Source: an uncultured Desulfobacteraceae bacterium
GTDB lineage: Bacteria; Desulfobacterota; Desulfobacteria; Desulfobacterales; SKZT01
NCBI GenBank assembly: GCA_964478625.1
Contig: CAYZJH010000014.1
Span: 7,098 to 71,097, forward strand
DNA length: 64,000 bases
Direction of reading: 5' to 3'
The notes beneath the pieces are model-generated. The model searched no databases. It saw nothing but the letters and a program-made list of their open reading frames with translations, and was not told the origin of the DNA. Positions 41,034-50,850 of this stretch are shown piece after piece. How positions within the stretch are numbered: the first letter of the stretch is position 1; every line of letters begins with the position of its first letter. The translations under genes were made by a program, and so were the position numbers.

Positions 41034-42257
41034 CTATAGATTGGAAGAGAGTTTCAGCTGGTTCTTATTGAGGGTTAAACCGAAATTTTCCTGAATCAGT
41101 TCATGAGGTCCGTCGGAAAAAGGAATAAAAATCAGCCTTGCCTTTTCCGGTCGAATTTTGATGCCATGCAGGAGAGGCAAATAATGGCTTGAGGGGCATG
41201 CAAAGGAAGCAAAATTGATTTTCATGCATTCAGCAGCTTCAGTAACCGGTAACGTGATCGGAAGGATTTGCCTTGACGGAAGTTTTTCCATATGCTCATT
41301 TCGAGGCTGAACCATGGTAAGATTTCGGTTCAGACGGAGAAATACCTTCGGAGGCACTTTGAACGCCATACACCAGAAATAGAAATCTGTCTTATAATCC
41401 TCGGGCATCGGGACTTTAGGCAAATTAGCGACCCGTATCAGGTCCGCATAGGAATTCAAATGAACTCCTTCGACTGCTGCCTTGATTCGCCAGAAGGGCA
41501 GGAAAATATCTCCGGGCATTTTCAGGGTTGCAAACTTAATCCGGGTGAGGCTTTCGCCCTTTGCAGCCCAGACCGTATTGCAATTTTTGCAAAGGAGCAC
41601 CAGTGAATCCCTCTCCCCGGAAAGGTCCCATCCGCAATTGGGACATAGGGTCGGAATAAAAACGAGCCGCCATTTTGGTGGACCACCCGGAAAAGAATCG
41701 ACACCGAAATCATCCGGAAGAGAACCGGTTACCGCTTTATTCAAGACTGCATCAATCATTTGCTTTTTAACATAAAATGGCGCATAAACAATGCTTAACG
41801 TCTCTCCCACAAAATCCTGATGAAAAACAGGTTCAGATGCATTTTGGCTGAATCTTCGAATAAAAATTTTCATGGCATCATCGCGAGAAAAGTTCGGATG
41901 TAAAAACCGACCTGGTGATTCAGGCAAAACAAATTTAAGTCGAAGGGTTTGAGTCCGGAATCCAAGGGATGCCGGAAAAAAATTGGATTGAACTCCCTGA
42001 CAACTGATATCCATGAAGCGGTGTTGCACCCCATCGGCCAAGGATGAAAAAAGCATCCCTTTAAATCGCCAATAGGGCACATAGATCAGCTGACTTGTTT
42101 CAGAAGTGTTATTGGGAAGCATGTATCTGAAATAGGGATGTTGAACAAGATATGATGACACCCGGCAATAGGGGCACCTGACCAAACGATCTGACTCTTC
42201 AAGGACGGAAGGGGCTCCGCACTGAGGGCATTGATGCTCAATCAAAAAGGGGGCCAT
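41034..42257 (-). CDS. Zinc-ribbon hypothetical protein (YdjG-like)
   Basis: CPQCGA, CPYC, CPNCG, CKNC and two YVPYW/FLPFW-type motifs. Confidence 0.7.
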   Translation of the reverse strand: MAPFLIEHQCPQCGAPSVLEESDRLVRCPYCRVSSYLVQHPYFRYMLPNNTSETSQLIYVPYWRFKGMLFSSLADGVQHRFMDISCQGVQSNFFPASLGFRTQTLRLKFVLPESPGRFLHPNFSRDDAMKIFIRRFSQNASEPVFHQDFVGETLSIVYAPFYVKKQMIDAVLNKAVTGSLPDDFGVDSFPGGPPKWRLVFIPTLCPNCGWDLSGERDSLVLLCKNCNTVWAAKGESLTRIKFATLKMPGDIFLPFWRIKAAVEGVHLNSYADLIRVANLPKVPMPEDYKTDFYFWCMAFKVPPKVFLRLNRNLTMVQPRNEHMEKLPSRQILPITLPVTEAAECMKINFASFACPSSHYLPLLHGIKIRPEKARLIFIPFSDGPHELIQENFGLTLNKNQLKLSSNL

Positions 42258-42259
42258 TT

Positions 42260-43384
42260 TTAGAGCTTATCCCCACACTGGTTGCAATATTGGGAATCCG
42301 CAAGATTTTCGCTTCCGCATTGCTTGCAGAATTTTGGTTCAGGTTTTTCCTCAACCCGATGCCCACAACGGGAACAGAATCTGGCGTTGGGAGTCAGGTT
42401 TTTTTTACAGTTCAGACATTGTGAAAATATCAGTTGCTGATGTCCGCAATGGGGGCAAAACTTGGATTCCGACAAAATCGGATTTTTGCATTCCGGGCAG
42501 ATAATATCATGTTGAGAATATTGCTGCTTTTGTCCTGCAGTTGCAAAAAATTGAGAAAACATGGCAGGCATCATCAACCCCACACCCATACCCATGCCGG
42601 CATTGGCACTGCCATCTGCTTCGGCAGCTTTTTCAACAGCCATTGCCGCTTTCATTTTCAGCAGTTTATTCATATCATCAAAAAGTCCTAACCGGCTTCG
42701 GTCGTCCATTGACTTTTGTACTTCCGGAGGAGGTGTAATGGAATTCATATAAAGATGGGTCAACGCAATGCCAAAATGGGCAAAATCATCGTGCAGACGT
42801 TTGGCCAGATTTTGGGAAAGCTGGTCATATTTTGAAGGAAGATTCAAAATGGAATCAATGGTTTCGCCCATGAGATCATTGAAACGGGATACAATCACAA
42901 GGTTCAGGTATTCTTCTATTTCAGCGGTGTTATACATGCCTTGCGTACCCACCAGACGGTTGATAAAAAGTACCGGCTGAACCACCTGAATATTAAAAAC
43001 ACCAAAAGCCCTTAAACGAATCAGGCCCAGTTCTTTATCCTTAAACGCTACCGGATCGCGGGTTCCCCATTTCAAGTTGGTAAATGTCTTTAAATTGACA
43101 AAATAAACTTCGGCTCTCAGTGGGCTTGTCAGACCCCACGGGAGACTTGCAATTTTAGTTAAAATCGGAATGTTCGCCGTTTTGAGGGTATGCCTCCCCG
43201 CAGGAAATGCTTCTACCGCCTTACCTTTGTAAAAAAAGACCCCGGCCTGGCTTTCTCTGACGGTCAGCTGCGCCCCGTATTTAATTTCTCCGGAACCTGT
43301 TTCCGGTATTCGATGTACCATCTCTTTTCCGGTCTCATCGAACCACTCAATAACCTCCAAAAAGATCACGTTGTTTGTTCCCAT
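42260..43384 (-). CDS. SPFH (Band 7-like) protein with C-terminal zinc ribbons (YdjI-like)
   Basis: QLTVRESQ, KWGT.DP, LRAFG, GMGMG linker, repeated C..C/F.C..CG; start refined to ATG 43384. Confidence 0.88.
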   Translation of the reverse strand: MGTNNVIFLEVIEWFDETGKEMVHRIPETGSGEIKYGAQLTVRESQAGVFFYKGKAVEAFPAGRHTLKTANIPILTKIASLPWGLTSPLRAEVYFVNLKTFTNLKWGTRDPVAFKDKELGLIRLRAFGVFNIQVVQPVLFINRLVGTQGMYNTAEIEEYLNLVIVSRFNDLMGETIDSILNLPSKYDQLSQNLAKRLHDDFAHFGIALTHLYMNSITPPPEVQKSMDDRSRLGLFDDMNKLLKMKAAMAVEKAAEADGSANAGMGMGVGLMMPAMFSQFFATAGQKQQYSQHDIICPECKNPILSESKFCPHCGHQQLIFSQCLNCKKNLTPNARFCSRCGHRVEEKPEPKFCKQCGSENLADSQYCNQCGDKL

Positions 43385-43706
43385 ACGCCAACCTCTTTTT
43401 CCGGAATGACCCGGGTTGATCAAATTGTAATTGTACCTTGGATTATCGATCTGACAAAGACGGTGGATTTTTTGCCGACTTATTCTTTTTAACGGGTTAT
43501 AATCAATGCTATTTATTCTAGTCAACTCGAAATTGGTTTTTTTGGATTTTTTTCGATTCTTGTCGATAGAAATATGGGTGCCAATGATTTATGATAATTA
43601 AGAAAATGAATTCTTGGCTGACTATTTTGATTCAGAAGAACTTGCAGAGTATTTCTAATCAGTAATGGAACGTGTGAGATCGTGCTATTTGGATCAAGGA
43701 GGAGAT

Positions 43707-44303
43707 ATGGGAAAAATCATCTATGGAATTTGCCTTTTCTTTTTACCGTTGATCTTCTGTTCGTGTACCTTGCAACCAATGGCACCGGTTGAATGGCGAT
43801 ATGAGAAGTCAGCTATCACCCTTCATGTAACTGCCGATCCCCTGTTAAATCTTTACAGAGGCAGCGCTCATGCTCTCCATTTATGCATTTACCAACTCAT
43901 GGATCCCGATCCCTTTAATCGCCTGTCCCAAAACTCAGAGGGAATTTCGGAGCTTCTTCAATGTCGGGGGTTCGATTCCAGTGTGGCAAATGCCAGGGTT
44001 TTATCCCGTTCAGGAATCCAGCCCGGCGATTCTTTGACATTCATGCTTGACCGGACTCAAGGAGCTAAATATTTAGGTATTGTGGCGGGATATCAGATTT
44101 TGGAACAAGAGCGAACAGTTCGACTGATAAAAATCCCTGTGACGGTTGAAATCGCAATCGACGGCTTGCTTCAAATTGAAAGGATACAAAAACCTGCCAT
44201 ATTTGGGATTGATCTTCATCTGGGCCCCCAGTATATTCAAAAGACGGTGGTCATGAAATTGAAACAAAAAAATGCAGAAACCGAAAGAGTCATTTTCCAA
44301 TAG
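43707..44303 (+). CDS. tssJ: T6SS lipoprotein TssJ/VasD-like
   Basis: GGAGGAG RBS, lipobox-like IFCSC, ADPLLNLY, LCIYQL, A.YLGIVAGY. Confidence 0.82.
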   Translation: MGKIIYGICLFFLPLIFCSCTLQPMAPVEWRYEKSAITLHVTADPLLNLYRGSAHALHLCIYQLMDPDPFNRLSQNSEGISELLQCRGFDSSVANARVLSRSGIQPGDSLTFMLDRTQGAKYLGIVAGYQILEQERTVRLIKIPVTVEIAIDGLLQIERIQKPAIFGIDLHLGPQYIQKTVVMKLKQKNAETERVIFQ

Positions 44304-44329
44304 AAATGATACCTGAAAAAGAAAAAAAC

Positions 44330-45007
44330 ATGCGATTGACCGACTGTTTTATCGATTTAATTGCCTATGTCTCCTATTTTTTGAAAGAGTTGAATACGAA
44401 TCAACCTGACTTTGATGATGTAAGGTCTGACATCGAAAAACTGATCCTGGGATGTGAAAACCATTTGGGAACAGGCAGATTTTCCCGCGAAGACTATGAT
44501 TTGGCCCGGTTTGCCGTTTTTGCCTGGGTGGATGAAAGTATTTTAAACTCAACCTGGAAAGACCGAACACGATGGTTGGGTCAACAGCTTCAAAATGTTT
44601 ATTATCATGTCTTCGACGCCTCAGAAATTTTTTTCGAAAACTTAAACACACTTAAGCTTCACCAAAAGGACATCAGGGAGGTCTACCTTTTATGTTTAGC
44701 CATGGGCTTTAAAGGCCGTTATTGTAATCAACACGATGAGGTTACTCTTAAACAACTGAAAGCTTTTAATCTAGCAGCCATAACAGGGGCATCCTCGGGG
44801 GTACAACCCTTAAAAACCGAAAAACTTTTTCCCGACGCTTACAACGATGATGATCCCAAAAATCATGCTCCCTTGCATAAATCCGGAATTTTCTCTTCCA
44901 CACTTTTTTGTGTTACGTTTCCAATCCTATGTTGCATAGTTCTTTTCCTCCTATTTCGTTTTATTTTAGTTAATGCCGGAGATAATCTGTTAAGGATGAT
45001 GCCATAA
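44330..45007 (+). CDS. tssL: DotU/TssL family protein (no OmpA domain)
   Basis: MRLTDCF, ARFAVFAWVDE, W....LQ, FFENL, EVYLLCLAMGFKGRY, C-terminal TM (alternative start 44306). Confidence 0.9.
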   Translation: MRLTDCFIDLIAYVSYFLKELNTNQPDFDDVRSDIEKLILGCENHLGTGRFSREDYDLARFAVFAWVDESILNSTWKDRTRWLGQQLQNVYYHVFDASEIFFENLNTLKLHQKDIREVYLLCLAMGFKGRYCNQHDEVTLKQLKAFNLAAITGASSGVQPLKTEKLFPDAYNDDDPKNHAPLHKSGIFSSTLFCVTFPILCCIVLFLLFRFILVNAGDNLLRMMP

Positions 45008-48000
45008 ATGACACAGGTTTCGAGAAAATTATTTAAAGCGGTTTTCATTCCAGCTTCGGCTTTTTTGATTATACTGGTAGGAGTCAGGGTGGCATTGTTG
45101 CACGGATTGCCCTGGTGGATGGTTCTTTTTATCCTGTTCAGCAGTTTGGCCGGAATCATCTTTGTGAAAACAATTTTGCAAAGGTATCAAGAGCAAAACT
45201 TTCTTCAAAAAGTCATGGATCTATATGATTCTTTTCCCGAAACCACCAATGACGGCGAAAATGAAAATACAGTAGAATTTCGTGATCTTTTAACAAAAGT
45301 AATGCAGGAAATCCGAAAATTTCAGCAAAAAAAACCGGGAAATCCTTTATCTCTTCTCCCCTGCTATTTGATCATTGGCGAAAGCGATTCAGGAAAAACA
45401 ACAGCCATAAAAAATGCCGGCCTGACACCTCTTTTTCCGGAACTAAATCTTAATTCCGGCATTCCCCTGACAAAAAATTGCCGCTGGTGGTTTTTTGAAG
45501 AGGCAATTATTCTCGATGCAAAAGGGAAATTTGTCGTTCTTAAAGGCAAAAAACCTTATAATCTCGAGTGGCAGAAGCTCTTTTCACTGTTGACCATCTT
45601 TCGGAAAAAAGATCCGATCAACGGACTTGTGGTAACCGTAGCCGCCGATAGGTTGATCAACCCTCAGATGGAAATTCTCGAAAATGACGGCAGAAAAATT
45701 CGCAGGCAAATTGATGAATTGATAGGGGTTCTGGGCTCTACTTTTCCGATATATCTAATGGTGAGCAAGTGTGACCTCATACAAGGCATGACCCAATTTT
45801 GGAGCAATTTTACCGACCAAAAACTTGAACAGGCCATGGGTGTGCTTAATCAGGATATGACTAGAAATGCCATAACATTTCATGAACAGGCGTTTCAAAA
45901 AATTGCAGATCGACTAAAATATTTGAGACTATTGATTTTTCAACGTTCCAACTCAAAGATCGCCCCGGAACTTCTGCTTTTTCCTGATGAGTTTGAACGG
46001 ATTAACCCTGGATTGGATCGTTTTATTAGAGCCATTTTTCATGATGACTATCTTCAAAACACTCCCATTTTACGTGGCATTTTTTTCAGCAGTGGTCATC
46101 AGGAAGGAACCCCTTATTCCCATTTTATGAATTCCATGGGATTTACCCAAGACAAAGAGACCCTTCCAGGAACAAATAACAACCTTTTCTTAAAAGACTT
46201 TTTCTCAAGAATTCTCCCAAATGACACAGCACTGTCTGCCCCAACCCAAAAGGCAGTCGAATGGAATCGATGGCCCCGAAATTTAGGACTGACCTCATGG
46301 ATAGCGATCACGTTTACAGTATGCGGATTACTCAGCATTTCATTTGCCAAAAATCTGGAAGCCATAAGATATGCAGCCGGTGATTTTACTTCTCCACCTG
46401 TGTTACAGGGAGAAATTTCTTCTGATTTAGCTACCATGGACCATTTTCGTCAGGCTATTCTGAATATTGAACTGCGAAATCATACATGGTGGATTCCTCG
46501 CCTTATGCTTACAGAAAGTTTGACTATAGAAAAAAAAATCAAAGAAAAATATTGTTCAACGTTCAAAAATGTATTTTTGGTATCATTTGACAAACAGATG
46601 CTGGAACTCCTTTCCGGTTTTGATGGGATTACGCAAGATGAAGAAATTGGACAACATGCGGCACATCTGGTCTATCGGATCAATCTGTTAAAAGCCCGAC
46701 TTGAAGATGAAAACCTCGAAGTGCCCGTTAAAAAACTTCAACTTTCTTATAAAACCGATAGGGCTTCAGAAAAACAGCCGTTTATTCCTGAACTTTATGA
46801 AAACTTTTATACCACTTATTCACATTACCTAATTTGGCTGGATGATACCAGTCAGTTAAAAAATGAAATCGATACCCTTCAGAGTTGGCTTAAAAGCCTA
46901 TTGGATTTAAGACCCAATGAAATGCAATGGCTTGTGGCATGGATAAATCAAAACCCCATGATTTCAGATATTTTTCTCCAAGACTTTTGGATAGGACCCC
47001 CCCATAAAACAAGCAACTATCCGACGACCTTCAAAAATTCTGCTGATAAAAAGGAGAAGAAAATTGCAGCAGATACCGGTGCAACCATCCGACGGGCATA
47101 TACTTCCAAAGGAAAAGAAATGATCGAGTCCTTTATTGGGGAAATGGAAAAAGCCCTTCCAAACCCAAATTTGCTTTCAACCCGTAAAGCTGAATTTGAA
47201 CAATGGTACAGGGAATCCTATTTTAATGAATGGCTGGCATTTGGAGAATATTTTTCCAATGGTGTCGGCCTTCTTGATGGAAAGTTGCAATGGCAGAAAA
47301 TGGCCTCAATTATGGATACCGATAACAGTCCATTCTTTGAGCTTCTTGAAACAATGGCTGAAGAGCTAAAGCCCATTTGTACACAACATTGCCAGGATCT
47401 GCCGCCATGGGCAGACCTTGTTTTTAAATTTCATATGATCGGGGAAAATATGGACTCCGAAACAACAACCCGAACATCTGAGCCAACCCAATCCATGATG
47501 ATTGCCGCAGAAGCCTATGAACAATACAAAAACGCACTTCAAGAAATATTGCCGATCGTCACATCCAGCGACCTTGCTTTCCAGATGACAGGGATAACTT
47601 TTGGAGAAGATCCGGTTGGAAACACTTCTCCATTTATCAAGGCTCAAGATGCCGTTCAAAATATGAAAAAAGCCCTGGAAAATTCAGAAACTGAATCGTC
47701 CATGGTCTGGGAATTGATTAAAGGACCCTGGGAGTTTTTATGGGAGTACGCGATACAAGAAACCTCTTGTCATATCGAAGATTTATGGAAAAAATATGTA
47801 TTTGAGGATTTTCAGGACATCTCTGATATTAACCTGGTGGCAGATTTATTGATAGGCCCGAATGGTTTGGCGACAAAATTTGCTGATGGACCGGTAAAGC
47901 CTTTTGTCCTTCACAACCCGAACAAAGGATATTTTTCAAAGAAAACCTTCGAGAAAAAAATCCCCTTTGAAAATACTTTTTTAACCTTTCTGAACCGTGG

Positions 48001-48508
48001 AGACCAGTATCTTCAATACAAAAGATTAGAATCTCGGCAAAAAATCCGATCCAATTATTCGGTTAATATCAAAGGGTTTCCCACTGATGCCAATCCTGAA
48101 GCTAAAATCAAACCTCATGCCACCCATCTCAGGGTGAAATGCGCTAACCGGGTTTTCAGTTTAACCAATTTGAATTATCCCATTCAAAAGACAATCAACT
48201 GGTCTCCGGAAAACTGTGTTGAAGTTGCTTTCACCATTGAGGTGGATGAATTGAGTCTGGTAAAAAAATATCTGGGAAATGATGCATTCCCAAATTTTTT
48301 AAAAGACTTTTCAGCGGGAACCAAGACCTTCTATCCTATGGATTTTCCTCAAAATCTATCAGGCTTGAACCGGCTGGGAATCACCTATATCAGAGTGAAT
48401 TACGAGTTCAGTAATCATGAACCGTTGCTGACCTTTCAGAGAATCAATCAAAAAAGGCCCGTATTGCCGAATTTACCTAAAAATATTACACAATGCTGGG
48501 ACAACTGA
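45008..48508 (+). CDS. tssM: IcmF/TssM family protein
   Basis: N-terminal TMs, Walker A IIGESDSGKTT, WWFFEEAIILD, PINGLVV, FPIYLMVSKCDLIQG, LRGIFFSSG, TM, long periplasmic domain. Confidence 0.9.
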   Translation: MTQVSRKLFKAVFIPASAFLIILVGVRVALLHGLPWWMVLFILFSSLAGIIFVKTILQRYQEQNFLQKVMDLYDSFPETTNDGENENTVEFRDLLTKVMQEIRKFQQKKPGNPLSLLPCYLIIGESDSGKTTAIKNAGLTPLFPELNLNSGIPLTKNCRWWFFEEAIILDAKGKFVVLKGKKPYNLEWQKLFSLLTIFRKKDPINGLVVTVAADRLINPQMEILENDGRKIRRQIDELIGVLGSTFPIYLMVSKCDLIQGMTQFWSNFTDQKLEQAMGVLNQDMTRNAITFHEQAFQKIADRLKYLRLLIFQRSNSKIAPELLLFPDEFERINPGLDRFIRAIFHDDYLQNTPILRGIFFSSGHQEGTPYSHFMNSMGFTQDKETLPGTNNNLFLKDFFSRILPNDTALSAPTQKAVEWNRWPRNLGLTSWIAITFTVCGLLSISFAKNLEAIRYAAGDFTSPPVLQGEISSDLATMDHFRQAILNIELRNHTWWIPRLMLTESLTIEKKIKEKYCSTFKNVFLVSFDKQMLELLSGFDGITQDEEIGQHAAHLVYRINLLKARLEDENLEVPVKKLQLSYKTDRASEKQPFIPELYENFYTTYSHYLIWLDDTSQLKNEIDTLQSWLKSLLDLRPNEMQWLVAWINQNPMISDIFLQDFWIGPPHKTSNYPTTFKNSADKKEKKIAADTGATIRRAYTSKGKEMIESFIGEMEKALPNPNLLSTRKAEFEQWYRESYFNEWLAFGEYFSNGVGLLDGKLQWQKMASIMDTDNSPFFELLETMAEELKPICTQHCQDLPPWADLVFKFHMIGENMDSETTTRTSEPTQSMMIAAEAYEQYKNALQEILPIVTSSDLAFQMTGITFGEDPVGNTSPFIKAQDAVQNMKKALENSETESSMVWELIKGPWEFLWEYAIQETSCHIEDLWKKYVFEDFQDISDINLVADLLIGPNGLATKFADGPVKPFVLHNPNKGYFSKKTFEKKIPFENTFLTFLNRGDQYLQYKRLESRQKIRSNYSVNIKGFPTDANPEAKIKPHATHLRVKCANRVFSLTNLNYPIQKTINWSPENCVEVAFTIEVDELSLVKKYLGNDAFPNFLKDFSAGTKTFYPMDFPQNLSGLNRLGITYIRVNYEFSNHEPLLTFQRINQKRPVLPNLPKNITQCWDN

Positions 48509-48605
48509 CCCCCTGAAATCATTTATCATGAGCCTATTAGAAAAACCCGCAGTTACCCCCCTTTTTTGGGCGAATTAATATACAGATTACCTGGTTAATC
48601 GCAGA

Positions 48606-48722: not shown

Positions 48723-49061
48723 ATGGAAAAGAAAGACCTAAAAAAATTGCTTGCAGGTTTTGGAATCGCCGGCTTGATCAGTATGGGAGGAGTGACTCTT
48801 CCAGGGGTTCATGCAGGTAGCAGCTGAGGAGCCAAACCCAGTGCGGGCGGCACTGAACAACAACAAAAAGCACCAGCCGGAAGTGGCTGAGGCGCCAAAA
48901 AAGAAAGCGCAGTTAGCGCAGAAGAAAAAAAGCAACAGCAGGAGCAACAGCAACTAGATCAGCAAGAGGCTGAGGAAAAGGCCGAAGAAGTCCTGGAAAA
49001 AGAAGGAGAACCTGTTGAAAAACCAGCCGGAAAAAGCGGTTGAGGGGGCAAAAAACAATAA
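48723..49061 (+). CDS. sbtA: Selenocysteine-containing RiPP precursor (selenobacteriocin/SbtA-like), three Sec
   Basis: GGAGGTGA RBS; MEKKDLKKLLAGFGIAGLISMGGVTLPGVHAGSSUGAKPSAGGTEQQQKAPAGSGUGAKKESAVSAEEKKQQQEQQQLDQQEAEEKAEEVLEKEGEPVEKPAGKSGUGGKKQ then TAA; TGA at 48825, 48888 and 49041, all in frame. Confidence 0.88.
48839..48855 (+). other. SECIS-like hairpin for Sec35
   Basis: CAGTGC-GGGCG-GCACTG, 11 nt after the TGA. Confidence 0.72.
48907..48919 (+). other. SECIS-like hairpin for Sec56 (weak)
   Basis: GCGC-AGTTA-GCGC, 16 nt after the TGA. Confidence 0.5.
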
Positions 49062-49078
49062 TCATGCAGGATGCATGA
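49062..49078 (+). other. SECIS-like hairpin for Sec107, located in the 3' UTR
   Basis: TCATGC-AGGAT-GCATGA, 18 nt after the TGA and just past the TAA. Confidence 0.7.
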
Positions 49079-49213
49079 CAAATAATTGAAATACAGGATT
49101 TAGCAGAACCGTTTCTCAATGCAGCTGTTTTTTTTGGGAACTGAATTGAACGGTGGCTCTTTGATTTGTATTGATTTATTAACGCCTCTTTCCGGAAAAA
49201 GATTCTCCAAAAG

Positions 49214-49248
49214 TCAGGAGTGCAAAGCAACTGCTTATGCACTCCTGA
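49214..49248. other. Long intergenic hairpin
   Basis: TCAGGAGTGCA-AAGCA-AC-TGCTT-A-TGCACTCCTGA. Confidence 0.7.
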
Positions 49249-49272
49249 TCCTTGCGCCAATTTAATCAATGA

Positions 49273-50850
49273 ATGGATAAAAAACCATACCCCATATGCT
49301 TCGAACTTTTGCCGCATCTGGAAAATAAATGGCAAAAAGATCGGCCGCTGTCGGACATGCTGCGTGAGAACCCGGAAATGTGCGACCATTACCCTTTTCT
49401 GGCGGACCTGGCAAGAATCGAGGAAGCCGTATACCGACTGCTGAAATCGCCTCCACAGATCCCTGTGCCTCTATTGCGCCGAATGGTCAACCCGGCCCTT
49501 GAATTGATTCCGCTCAACTGGCTGAATCTGCCTGAATTTCTGTCCGACAGGAGCGTTGTCCCGAAACCTGGTAAGAACTATGTTCTTGTTTTGATAAAAC
49601 CGGGGGAAAATCATGTGGAGATCCGCAATGCCATGGCCAGAGATCTTCTGGCACTTAAAATCATAGTCGAAGACATTCACCCACGCAATGCGGCCTCTGA
49701 AGGTGGAGTTTCGGCGGGAGCAATTGATGATCTTCTATACCGTTCCCAACAGCAGGGGTTGATCATGGTTCCACCCTCAAAAATCCGGCGATCTGAAGAC
49801 TTCCCCAAAGGCGAGATCAAGGATCTTGAATTTTTCTCGTCGCCAACCTTTACTCTTCAGTGGCACCTTACCCAGGTTTGCGATTTAAATTGCCGCCATT
49901 GCTACGATCGCAGCGATCGTCAAGAGATGAATTTAAACCAGGCAATCGGAATCCTGGACGATCTTTATGACTTTTGCCGGGAGCATCATGTTTTTGGCCA
50001 AGTGTCTTTTTCCGGCGGTAATCCCTTGCTCTACCCCCACTTTGATCAAATTTACCGTGAAGCTGCTGACCGCGGTTTTATGACTGCTGTTTTAGGCAAT
50101 CCCATGCCCCGCAGCAGAATTGAAAGGATGCTGTCGGTTCAAAAACCTGAATTTTACCAAATCAGCATTGAGGGCTTAAAAGATCACAATGATTATATCC
50201 GTGGTCAGGGACACTTTAACCGGGCCCTTGATTTTCTGAAACTACTGGGTGAGCTGAACGTCTACCGGATGGTGATGCTGACCCTGACTCGCGACAATTT
50301 GAATCAGGTTATTGATCTGGCCGATCAATTGCGCGAACTCACCGATGTGTTCACTTTTAACCGGTTGGCGGGAGTGGGACGCGGCGCTGAACTTTCAGCC
50401 GCACCACCTAAACTATATCCCGAATTTTTGGCCCGTTACCTTGATGCGGCCAAAACAAACCCTTGCATGGGACTTAAAGACAATCTTTTTAACCTGCTTC
50501 GGTGGCAACATGACCCTCGTACCCTGGATGGCGGTTGCGCAGGCTACGGTTGCGGAGCCGCTTTCAATTTCATGGCGTTGCTCCCGGATGGAGAGGTGCA
50601 TGCATGCCGCAAACTCCCGTCGTTTCTCGGCAATATTTATCACCATCGACTCAGCGATATCTACCACAATTCTCTATCCCGCAGATATCGTTCCGGATCA
50701 TCGGTCTGCAAGGACTGCCCGATTCGGCCGGTATGCGGTGCATGTCTTGCCGTAGGATATGGATTTGGCCGTGATATATTCAAAGAGCCGGATCCTTATT
50801 GTTTCCGAAACCGGATGGAAAATCGGTGTGGAAAATCCGCGATTCTTTAA
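49273..50850 (+). CDS. sbtM: Radical SAM/SPASM peptide maturase (SbtM-like) with N-terminal accessory domain
   Basis: LQWHLTQVCDLNCRHC, SGGNP, GCGAA...LPDGEVHACRK, C..C..RPVCGAC...DPYC; N-terminal YPFLADLARIE. Confidence 0.85.
   Translation: MDKKPYPICFELLPHLENKWQKDRPLSDMLRENPEMCDHYPFLADLARIEEAVYRLLKSPPQIPVPLLRRMVNPALELIPLNWLNLPEFLSDRSVVPKPGKNYVLVLIKPGENHVEIRNAMARDLLALKIIVEDIHPRNAASEGGVSAGAIDDLLYRSQQQGLIMVPPSKIRRSEDFPKGEIKDLEFFSSPTFTLQWHLTQVCDLNCRHCYDRSDRQEMNLNQAIGILDDLYDFCREHHVFGQVSFSGGNPLLYPHFDQIYREAADRGFMTAVLGNPMPRSRIERMLSVQKPEFYQISIEGLKDHNDYIRGQGHFNRALDFLKLLGELNVYRMVMLTLTRDNLNQVIDLADQLRELTDVFTFNRLAGVGRGAELSAAPPKLYPEFLARYLDAAKTNPCMGLKDNLFNLLRWQHDPRTLDGGCAGYGCGAAFNFMALLPDGEVHACRKLPSFLGNIYHHRLSDIYHNSLSRRYRSGSSVCKDCPIRPVCGACLAVGYGFGRDIFKEPDPYCFRNRMENRCGKSAIL

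What the first reader, a model, noticed from the sequence alone, without database searches (positions are those of the whole stretch)
43707..48508. Orphan T6SS membrane complex (tssJ-tssL-tssM) lacking tssK and all tail genes
Seen: three full-length, abutting ORFs with no frameshifts. tssJ runs straight into tssL, where tssK (the baseplate connector) usually sits, and no tssA/B/C/E/F/G, hcp, vgrG or clpV occurs in the 64 kb. TssL lacks an OmpA domain and TssM keeps a Walker A. Established: TssJLM forms a trans-envelope channel, and DotU/IcmF homologs serve a different machine in Legionella Dot/Icm. Inference: either a split T6SS or a membrane complex repurposed as an independent channel or scaffold.
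Basis: partly seen in the sequence, partly recalled or inferred. Interest (0 to 1): 0.68.

Follow-up and report, generated by a model that had tools for sequence, protein, structure and literature searches.

The report
T6SS cluster stripped to membrane genes
A sulfate-reducer-type bacterium (Desulfobacterales) carries only the three envelope-anchor genes (tssJ, tssL, tssM) of what its relatives show was a complete type VI secretion gene cluster; the three survivors are intact and still under selection, but I could not check whether the missing parts sit elsewhere in its genome.

Summary
Window 43707-48508 encodes intact tssJ, tssL and tssM, and no other T6SS gene occurs in the 64 kb or the next 9 kb.

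This is not an ancestral orphan. Of 116 related loci with room to judge, 113 have tssK between tssJ and tssL. Of 147, 145 have tagF after tssM, and most continue into tssB/C/E/F/G/clpV. Three relatives carry the window's upstream neighbours (SPFH/zinc-ribbon gene plus a 407-aa gene) next to a tssK/tagF-containing module, and two of them run on into the tail genes. A tagF start stub remains at 48493-48516.

A second lineage (locus L007, TssM 56% identical) has the same J-L-M-only layout. dN/dS between the two is 0.27-0.29 at dS near 1, so the genes are not decaying neutrally.

All three genes still evolve faster than in tssK-bearing sisters. In the window's TssM, lost conservation sits in the cytoplasmic domain (56/183 conserved columns versus 13/134 periplasmic). 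Its TssL has the most replaced conserved columns of 145 sequences. The nucleotide-binding motifs are kept.

Best reading: the trio still builds a trans-envelope complex that no longer docks its cognate baseplate. A split T6SS with the tail elsewhere is not excluded, because the whole genome could not be searched. Interest is moderate.

The parts
43567..43595 (+). Promoter-like site (TAGAAA-17-TATGAT) upstream of tssJ, in the 180-nt divergent intergenic region shared with the SPFH gene
   Evidence: Consensus scan only, and the number of sites found does not exceed shuffles. A 4960-nt Logan contig (L005) starts at 43592 and ends at 48551, so it spans exactly tssJ-tssL-tssM. This is suggestive, not proof.
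43707..44303 (+). tssJ, outer-membrane lipoprotein of the T6SS membrane complex (198 aa)
   Evidence: Pfam T6SS-SciN E=1.3e-12. 58-61% identical to the TssJ of L002 and L006, where tssK follows it. Signal/lipobox-like N-terminus. Only 2 of 29 conserved columns are replaced.
44259..44329 (+). Scar where the 1.4-kb tssK sits in relatives. It includes a possible remnant of the tssK start at 44272-44291.
   Evidence: Alignment to the junctions in L002 and L006. Coordinates. The remnant reading is weak (ATGCAGAAACCG against ATGGAAAGACCT).
44330..45007 (+). tssL (DotU family, short form, 225 aa). Cytoplasmic domain plus one C-terminal TM anchor.
   Evidence: DotU E=1.3e-33 and TIGR03349 above its cutoff. 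PDB relatives are 3u66 and 6y4r. TM segment at aa 185-221. 12 of 59 conserved columns are replaced, the most among 145 family members.
45008..48508 (+). tssM (IcmF family, 1166 aa). TM1-TM2, a cytoplasmic NTPase-like domain (aa ~60-425), TM3, and a periplasmic domain (aa ~450-1166).
   Evidence: IcmF-related_N E=1.6e-56. TIGR03348 matches the N-terminal half only, at 252 bits, against 334-361 bits for orthologues in tssK-containing loci. Full-length orthology to TssM of complete clusters. Walker A, DxxG and TKxD-like motifs are kept. The periplasmic part is modelled at pLDDT 80-94.
48493..48516 (+). Stub of tagF (MLGQLTP*), overlapping the 3' end of tssM
   Evidence: In relatives tagF starts ATGCTGGG... 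(MLGL...) at the same overlap with tssM. Here it stops after 7 codons.
42260..43384 (-). SPFH/Band-7 plus double zinc-ribbon protein, divergently transcribed. An ancestral neighbour of the T6SS cluster, not a new partner.
   Evidence: Pfam Band_7_1 E=3e-65. The same gene sits upstream of tssK/tagF-containing modules in L088, L089 and L172. 88% identical to the L007 copy, with dN/dS 0.07.
41034..42257 (-). 407-aa protein of unknown function with weak zinc-ribbon hits, paired with the SPFH gene. An ancestral neighbour.

Best explanation
What it is (well supported): a deletion derivative of a complete type VI secretion gene cluster of Desulfobacterales type, at the cluster's original chromosomal site. 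Three losses are visible: the two upstream accessory genes X and Y (Y resembles the C-terminus of TagH), tssK, and tagF with everything downstream. Only tssJ, tssL and tssM remain.

How it most likely works (inferred): the three proteins still assemble the usual trans-envelope complex. [quoted passage not shown] TssM still binds nucleotide. The complex no longer docks its cognate TssK/TssFG baseplate, so it is kept for a role that does not need the cognate firing apparatus. Candidate roles are an envelope-spanning scaffold or channel, or an anchor for some non-cognate partner. The nature of that role is not shown.
For: Origin:
- 113 of 116 related loci have tssK and 145 of 147 have tagF; 88 of 96 have tssB/C within 10 kb downstream.
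- L088, L089 and L172 carry the window's 407-aa and SPFH neighbours directly upstream of X-Y-J-K-L-M-tagF. In L088 and L089 the cluster runs on into tssB/C, tssF/G and clpV (tssE detected in L088 only); L172's flank ends just after tagF.
- L002 shares the upstream queuosine genes with the window.
- A tagF stub remains.

Retention under selection:
- A second lineage (L007) has the same J-L-M-only layout with the same neighbours.
- Window against L007 gives dN/dS of 0.27, 0.29 and 0.27 for J, L and M at dS of 0.9-1.1, with no stop or frameshift in about 4.8 kb.
- By my estimate, neutral drift over even a tenth of that distance would be expected to introduce many stop codons.

Loss of constraint on the cytoplasmic side only:
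- With L088 as outgroup, the flanking genes are clock-like (SPFH 73 vs 75% identity, 407-aa 57 vs 60%).
- Against the same outgroup, TssM identity is 51% (window), 62% (L007) and 71% (tssK-bearing L002). TssL is 55, 67 and 75%. TssJ is 55, 59 and 65%.
- In the window's TssM, 56 of 183 conserved cytoplasmic columns are replaced against 13 of 134 periplasmic ones (Fisher p=7.5e-6).
- Window TssL has 12 of 59 conserved columns replaced, the most among 145 sequences; L007 ties for second with 6, and the median is 1. TssJ conserved columns are essentially intact.
- The window and L007 lost conservation at the same TssM columns more often than chance (23 observed, 10 expected, p=3e-6), mostly to different residues.
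- Walker A, DxxG and the K254/D256 motif are retained.
- In E. coli EAEC the baseplate docks on the cytoplasmic loop of TssM through TssG, and through TssK-TssL and TssK-TssM contacts (PMC4604203).

No spare cognate TssK:
- Eight of the nine database TssK proteins at 69% identity or more to the sister's TssK were traced, by contig look-up or matching contig length, to contigs that also carry tssM or a J-K-L context. The ninth (P0127) shares a 3.05-Mb contig with a TssC 98% identical to L088's. None was traced to the window's samples.
Against: - The rest of the organism's genome could not be searched. A non-cognate or fast-evolving tssK, baseplate and tail elsewhere is not excluded.
- The sister loci L002 and L006 already keep the membrane module apart from the tail genes, so split T6SSs exist in this clade.
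- dN/dS is only modestly above that of the tssK-bearing pair (0.27-0.29 against 0.16-0.23), and dS is near saturation.
- It is unresolved whether the two J-L-M-only lineages share one loss or lost the genes independently. QueF distances place L007 nearer to tssK-bearing L002.
- Only two such lineages are known.
- Transcription is not proven. The 'metatranscriptome' contigs are long and cover both strands.
- No stand-alone function of TssJLM is known.
Confidence: 0.45

Rival explanations
1. Split T6SS. The organism has tssK, the baseplate, sheath, tube and spike genes at another locus, and this trio is simply the ordinary membrane anchor of a working T6SS.
For: Split layouts exist in the same clade. 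L002 and L006 hold X-Y-J-K-L-M-tagF without adjacent canonical tail genes, and L069 is an isolated tssL-tssM-tagF operon. The three genes are intact and under purifying selection, and the nucleotide-binding motifs are kept. The metagenome that holds the window (X1) contains several T6SS tail gene sets.
Against: The split relatives keep tssK and/or tagF with the membrane genes, and their TssM is not accelerated. Here the conserved cytoplasmic columns of TssM and TssL are the ones lost, and in characterised systems these domains dock TssK and TssG. No spare close TssK turned up in a database that includes at least three assemblies of this organism. In run X2 the organism is at 270-490x, yet the only tssC-like contig is at 3.5x. 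That run may be RNA, so this is weak. The tail contigs in X1 with a listed depth are at about 9-16x, against 19.4x for the window, with summed depths up to about 32 at some tssC positions.
Confidence: 0.3
2. Non-functional relic. The trio is what is left of a dying cluster and has no function; it has simply not been deleted or broken yet.
For: Everything else in the cluster has been deleted. All three genes evolve faster than in tssK-bearing sisters. Conserved sites have been lost. GC3 of tssL and tssM (0.39) is below that of the flanking genes (0.45-0.51). Deletion remnants of T6SS clusters are common in other bacteria (PMC10763514).
Against: dN/dS is 0.27-0.29, not about 1, over dS near 1. 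About 4.8 kb is free of stops and frameshifts in two lineages that are 56-61% identical. The loss of conservation is domain-specific, whereas neutral decay would hit the periplasmic domain, TssJ and the NTP-binding motifs equally. This reading is tenable only if inactivation is very recent in both lineages.
Confidence: 0.15
3. Co-option by a type IVB (Dot/Icm-like) system, as with Legionella IcmF/DotU.
For: Analogy only. IcmF and DotU homologues serve a T4BSS in Legionella (established knowledge).
Against: The proteins are orthologues of T6SS TssL and TssM at the cluster's original site. NCBIfam IcmF_IVB scores 27.9 bits against a cutoff of 1000, and IcmH/DotU_IVB 31.4 against 50. TssJ is retained, which the Legionella pair lacks. 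No T4BSS gene was identified among the annotated genes of the window or the 9 kb beyond it.
Confidence: 0.03

Closest known systems
Canonical T6SS membrane complex TssJ-TssL-TssM (for example E. coli EAEC Sci-1). The closest sequenced example of this family in a complete cluster is Desulfosarcina alkanivorans PL12 (AP021874, locus L001).
   Same: Same three proteins, same gene order apart from the missing tssK, and same topology: a lipoprotein, a tail-anchored DotU protein, and a 3-TM IcmF protein with a Walker A motif and a large periplasmic domain. Full-length orthology at 40-50% identity.
   Different: No tssK between tssJ and tssL, no tagF, no X/Y accessory genes and no tail genes nearby. 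The conserved cytoplasmic surfaces of TssM and TssL have been eroded.
Incomplete or remnant T6SS clusters produced by deletion (for example Enterobacter bugandensis T6SS-i2-iii and orphan tssBC; PMC10763514)
   Same: Derived from a complete cluster by internal deletions at the same genomic site.
   Different: The Enterobacter remnants are recent strain-level variants. Here the reduced state is seen in two lineages separated by dS of about 1, with purifying selection on the survivors. The surviving set is the membrane complex, not tail genes.
Legionella and Coxiella IcmF/DotU (IcmH) of the Dot/Icm type IVB system
   Same: IcmF and DotU homologues that work without a contractile tail (established knowledge).
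   Different: Not orthologous, since the IVB-specific models fail. Legionella has no TssJ partner, and no T4BSS genes were seen here.
Split T6SS loci in the same Desulfobacterales family (L002, L006: X-Y-J-K-L-M-tagF; L069: tssL-tssM-tagF)
   Same: The membrane-complex genes are separated from the tail genes.
   Different: Those loci keep tssK and/or tagF and show normal evolutionary rates.

Membership tests
TssJ (T6SS outer-membrane lipoprotein) | Match to the TssJ/SciN family models | tested here: met
   Pfam PF12790 scores 47.9 bits against a cutoff of 27. NCBIfam TIGR03352 scores 26.5, just under its cutoff of 31.6. 58-61% identical to the TssJ of tssK-containing loci.
TssJ (T6SS outer-membrane lipoprotein) | Signal peptide with a lipobox cysteine | tested here: met
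   The N-terminus MGKIIYGICLFFLPLIFCSC is hydrophobic and followed by Cys, aligned with VYSC and LTAC in relatives. No dedicated lipoprotein predictor was run.
TssL (DotU family) | DotU cytoplasmic domain plus a single C-terminal TM anchor | tested here: met
   PF09850 scores 116.8 bits and TIGR03349 scores 103.9 against a cutoff of 89.95. TM segment at aa 185-221. PDB relatives are 3u66 and 6y4r.
TssM (IcmF family) | IcmF-related N-terminal NTPase-like domain with Walker A, flanked by TM segments | tested here: met
   PF14331 scores 191.9 bits. GESDSGKT, DxxG and K254/D256 are retained. TM segments at about aa 6-58 (two) and 426-447.
TssM (IcmF family) | Full-length match to the TssM equivalog model (TIGR03348) and to the IcmF periplasmic/C-terminal domains | tested here: not met
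   252 bits against a cutoff of 388, N-terminal half only. No PF06761 or PF06744 hit. The orthologues tested from tssK-containing loci also fall short (L001, in a complete cluster, 361 bits; L002 334 bits), so this is a limit of the model for this family. The window scores 80-110 bits lower still. Profile and fold searches against the PDB found nothing.
Functional T6SS (13 core components) | tssK, tssE/F/G, tssB/C, hcp, vgrG, tssA and clpV present in the genome | not testable with these tools
   These genes are absent from 64 kb plus 9 kb. The whole genome could not be reached, and the window's own genome was not returned by either collection scan.
Functional T6SS (13 core components) | tssK adjacent to the membrane-complex genes, as in this family | tested here: not met
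   There are 26 nt between tssJ and tssL where 113 of 116 relatives have a 1.4-kb tssK.
Type IVB IcmF/DotU | Match to the IVB-specific equivalog models | tested here: not met
   NF038226 scores 27.9 against a cutoff of 1000. NF038228 scores 31.4 against a cutoff of 50.

The most novel reading that the evidence does not exclude
TssJLM persists here as a stand-alone, tail-less trans-envelope complex. After the loss of TssK, TagF and the tail, selection kept the periplasmic and outer-membrane part and the nucleotide-binding core, while the baseplate-docking surfaces were freed. This would be a natural intermediate in the co-option of a T6SS membrane complex for another job. The columns that lost conservation in both lineages would then mark the surfaces that contact the baseplate and regulators.
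Probability: 0.3. Interest if true: 0.75.

Novelty: new variant of a known kind. Interest (0 to 1): 0.45.

Why it matters
Incomplete T6SS clusters are usually dismissed as junk. Here the membrane-complex genes alone have stayed intact under purifying selection in two diverged lineages.

If the genome really lacks a tail, this would be a first indication that TssJLM can have a selectable role without a baseplate. It would also give a natural model for how IcmF/DotU-type proteins get recruited to other machines.

Even if a tail exists elsewhere, the pattern is useful. Cytoplasmic conserved sites are released, the periplasmic ones are kept, and the same columns are hit in both lineages. That is a natural experiment pointing to the residues that couple TssM and TssL to TssK, TssG and TagF.

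Tried and rejected
- Finding the organism's genome: scans of metagenome contigs and genome contigs with a TssM alignment returned 160 relatives (37-48% identity) but not the window's own genome.
- Looking for a relocated cognate tssK: a TssK search found no spare candidate at 69% identity or more. A faster-evolving one would be hidden among hundreds of hits at 64-68%.
- Looking for tssC: the family is too conserved (80% or more in over 120 hits) to single out one organism. The listing of cluster members gave no accessions.
- Laying run contigs on relatives' tail genes at 80% likeness: only other community members matched.
- Expression: the one RNA-labelled run has 6-16 kb contigs that cover both strands, so transcription cannot be proven.
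- Structure: the AlphaFold model has a confident periplasmic domain and a poor cytoplasmic domain. A tssK-bearing control (P0011) is poor in the same place, so this says nothing specific about the window. Foldseek and sequence or profile searches against the PDB found no TssM structure.
- SPFH/407-aa as new partners: rejected, because they are ancestral neighbours of tssK/tagF-containing modules.
- T4BSS co-option: rejected.
- No Rfam family in 43-50 kb.
- Literature searches found no report of a conserved J-L-M-only locus.


Full report
**1. Observation**

The stretch holds three same-strand ORFs with no interruption.

- tssJ (43707-44303) matches Pfam T6SS-SciN. tssL matches DotU and TIGR03349. 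tssM (45008-48508) matches IcmF-related_N.
- The tssL ORF opens at 44306, but all relatives start at the Met equal to 44330 (MRLTDCF). The likely gene is therefore 44330-45007.
- Topology fits the family. TssJ has a hydrophobic N-terminus ending in Cys, TssL has one C-terminal TM segment, and TssM has three TM segments.
- Walker A (GESDSGKT) is present.
- tblastn with TssK, TagF, TssA/B/C, Hcp, TssE/F/G, ClpV-N and two family-specific accessory proteins from related clusters finds nothing else in the 64 kb, not even fragments.
- The large ORFs in the window are housekeeping genes, and the 9 kb beyond the window has no T6SS gene.

**2. Provenance**

- Homologues are from Desulfobacterales (Desulfosarcina and many MAGs).
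- The same sequence occurs in an ENA assembly (NODE_169, 92 kb), in an activated-sludge metagenome run and in an RNA-labelled run.

**3. What the relatives look like**

- In Desulfosarcina alkanivorans the orthologous TssM sits in a full cluster: X-Y-tssJ-tssK-tssL-tssM-tagF-impE-tssA-B-C-hcp-E-F-G-clpV.
- I surveyed 160 further loci from metagenomes and GTDB genomes with tblastn.
- tssK lies between tssJ and tssL in 113 of 116 loci with enough flank.
- tagF follows tssM in 145 of 147.
- tssB/C lie within 10 kb downstream in 88 of 96.
- The exceptions are the window, one other locus (L007), and L069, an isolated tssL-tssM-tagF operon.

**4. Origin by deletion**

- Three relatives (L088, L089, L172) carry the window's upstream neighbours, the 407-aa gene and the SPFH/zinc-ribbon gene, directly upstream of X-Y-J-K-L-M-tagF. 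In L088 and L089 the tail genes follow; L172's flank ends just after tagF.
- That pair is therefore ancestral synteny, not a new partnership.
- The closest tssK-bearing relative (L002, TssM 56-58% identical) shares the queuosine genes that lie 6 kb upstream in the window.
- At the 3' end of tssM the window keeps the overlapping start of tagF (ATGCTGGG..., MLGQLTP-stop, 48493-48516).
- About 70 nt of non-homologous sequence sits where the 1.4-kb tssK lies in relatives.
- The locus is a complete cluster stripped of X/Y, tssK, and tagF plus the tail.

**5. A second J-L-M-only lineage**

- Locus L007 (JGI metagenome, TssM P0004) has tssJ-tssL-tssM with the same neighbours on both sides: a 75-aa gene, a SpoIIAA-like gene, the 407-aa homologue and SPFH upstream, and a StbA-like peptide with the SbtM radical-SAM enzyme downstream.
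- Flanking proteins are 72-89% identical between the two organisms, whereas TssJ, TssL and TssM are 61, 57 and 56% identical.

**6. Selection**

- Window against L007 (NG86): dN/dS is 0.27 (J), 0.29 (L) and 0.27 (M) at dS 0.9-1.1.
- The flanking genes give 0.07-0.12.
- The tssK-bearing pair L002-L006 gives 0.23, 0.16 and 0.17, with 0.11 for tssK.
- The trio is under purifying selection that is somewhat relaxed.
- By my estimate, neutral evolution over even a tenth of the window's branch would be expected to add many stop codons to 4.8 kb. None is present.

**7. Acceleration and where it falls**

- The window's TssM is 42% identical on average to 110 outgroup TssM sequences, against about 54% for six of its eight tssK-bearing sisters; the two sisters listed in the unique-substitution comparison differ in similar proportion. 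P0004, from the second J-L-M-only locus, is at 49%.
- With L088 as outgroup the flanking genes behave like a clock (SPFH 73 vs 75%, 407-aa 57 vs 60%).
- Against the same outgroup, TssM is 51% (window), 62% (L007) and 71% (L002). TssL is 55, 67 and 75%. TssJ is 55, 59 and 65%.
- In the window's TssM, 37 of 78 conserved columns are replaced in aa 61-200 and 19 of 105 in aa 201-440. Only 13 of 134 are replaced in the periplasmic part (Fisher p=7.5e-6).
- The hardest-hit stretches flank the P-loop and the DxxG motif. SArLSSPFae..rtSGISGTrNCD has become NAGLTPLFPELNLNSGIPLTKNCR, and DTAGRYAIPVDEGRDKDEW has become DAKGKFVVLKGKKPYNLEW.
- Walker A, D170/G173 and K254/D256 are kept.
- Window TssL has 12 of 59 conserved columns replaced, the most among 145 sequences. 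L007 ties for second with 6, and the median is 1.
- TssJ conserved columns are nearly untouched.
- The window and L007 lost conservation at the same TssM columns more often than chance (23 observed, 10 expected, p=3e-6), mostly to different residues. This fits the same sites having been released from constraint in both lineages.
- In EAEC the baseplate docks on the cytoplasmic loop of TssM through TssG, with TssK-TssL and TssK-TssM contacts (PMC4604203). The released regions are therefore the ones expected to need the lost partners. This last step is inference.

**8. One loss or two?**

- A neighbour-joining tree on full-length TssM, or on its N-terminal domain, groups the window with P0004.
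- On the periplasmic part, P0004 groups with tssK-bearing P0002.
- QueF distances put L007 nearer to L002 (85% identity, dS 0.46) than to the window (76%, dS 0.87).
- The deletion endpoints also differ. L007 has a 6-nt J-L gap and a longer tagF stub.
- The question is unresolved. A single loss implies long retention after the loss. Independent losses imply convergent reduction to the same trio.

**9. Is the rest of the T6SS elsewhere?**

- This could not be decided.
- A search with the sister's TssK found nine proteins at 69% identity or more. Eight were traced, by contig look-up or matching contig length, to contigs that also carry tssM or a J-K-L context. The ninth (P0127) shares a 3.05-Mb contig with a TssC 98% identical to L088's. 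None was traced to the window's samples.
- TssC is too conserved across the family to be informative.
- Laying run contigs on relatives' tail genes showed other T6SS-bearing organisms in the sludge metagenome. Contigs with a listed depth are at about 9-16x against 19.4x for the window, with summed depths up to about 32 at some tssC positions.
- In the run where the window's organism is at 270-490x, the only tssC-like fragment is at 3.5x. That is weak evidence, because of the 80% identity threshold and because the run may be RNA.

**10. Expression**

- A 4960-nt contig from one run (L005) spans exactly 43592-48551, which is tssJ to tssM, and starts at a promoter-like site.
- The RNA-labelled run I could examine has long contigs covering both strands, so DNA carry-over cannot be excluded.
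- This is suggestive only.

**11. Structure**

- AlphaFold2 models the periplasmic domain confidently (pLDDT 80-94) and the cytoplasmic domain poorly.
- A tssK-bearing control is poor in the same region, so nothing specific follows.
- No PDB match was found by sequence, profile or fold.

**12. Verdict**

- The locus is a deletion-derived, membrane-complex-only remnant of a Desulfobacterales T6SS cluster.
- It is intact, under purifying selection, present in two lineages, and has lost constraint specifically on the cytoplasmic face.
- Most likely (confidence 0.45) it still forms the TssJLM complex but no longer serves its cognate baseplate.
- A split T6SS (0.3) and a very recent dead relic (0.15) remain possible.
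- It is a new variant of a known kind. Remnant T6SS clusters are common (PMC10763514), but a conserved J-L-M-only state was not found in the literature I searched.

Noticed in passing
window 48723-49057 and 49273-50850: A StbA-like precursor peptide gene lies just downstream of tssM. It has three in-frame TGA codons inside repeated G-S-x-TGA-G-x-K motifs, which may encode selenocysteine. It is followed by the radical-SAM maturase SbtM (TIGR04082, 640 bits). The same pair follows tssM in L007. The 158-aa minus-strand ORF at 48913-49389 is probably spurious.
   Followed up: partly
L006 20946-22457 (- strand): A 503-aa protein carries a VipA (TssB) domain at aa 32-121 and a VipB (TssC) N-terminal domain at aa 199-491. 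It looks like a fused, shortened sheath subunit. It lies 7 kb from an X-Y-J-K-L-M-tagF module, next to an FHA protein and a GNA1162-like/beta-helix protein.
   Followed up: partly
L069 9192-14076: An isolated tssL-tssM-tagF operon, with no tssJ or tssK within 9 kb upstream and opposite-strand genes on both sides. Its TssM is not accelerated. This is another way the module gets split.
   Followed up: partly
L001, L002, L006, L088 and most surveyed loci, directly upstream of tssJ: Two conserved accessory genes precede tssJ throughout this T6SS family. X (690-850 aa) has no Pfam or NCBIfam hit. Y (about 245 aa) resembles only the C-terminal domain of TagH/Fha and has no FHA domain. Both are lost in the window.
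   Followed up: partly
Surveyed loci L008-L167, tssC genes: The same membrane-module family is joined to at least two quite different tail modules. TssC is about 40%, about 52% or about 80% identical to that of D. alkanivorans, with or without impE-tssA-hcp. This suggests modular exchange between the membrane and tail parts.
   Followed up: no
window ~7458: Two independent assemblies (ENA NODE_169 and the 43.5-kb contig of SRR5581382) both end at the position equal to window 7458. This hints at a repeat or a strain-variable junction there.
   Followed up: no
window 41034-43525 (- strand); L088, L089, L172, L007: A conserved gene pair sits next to the T6SS site in five related genomes: an SPFH/Band-7 protein with C-terminal double zinc ribbons, and a 407-aa protein with weak zinc-ribbon motifs. 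It recalls the Bacillus YdjG/YdjI membrane-stress module (from memory, not tested).
   Followed up: partly
window 44330-48508: GC3 of tssL and tssM (0.39) is lower than that of the flanking genes (0.45-0.51) and of the sister's tssM (0.44). This fits weaker selection on codon usage or AT drift.
   Followed up: partly
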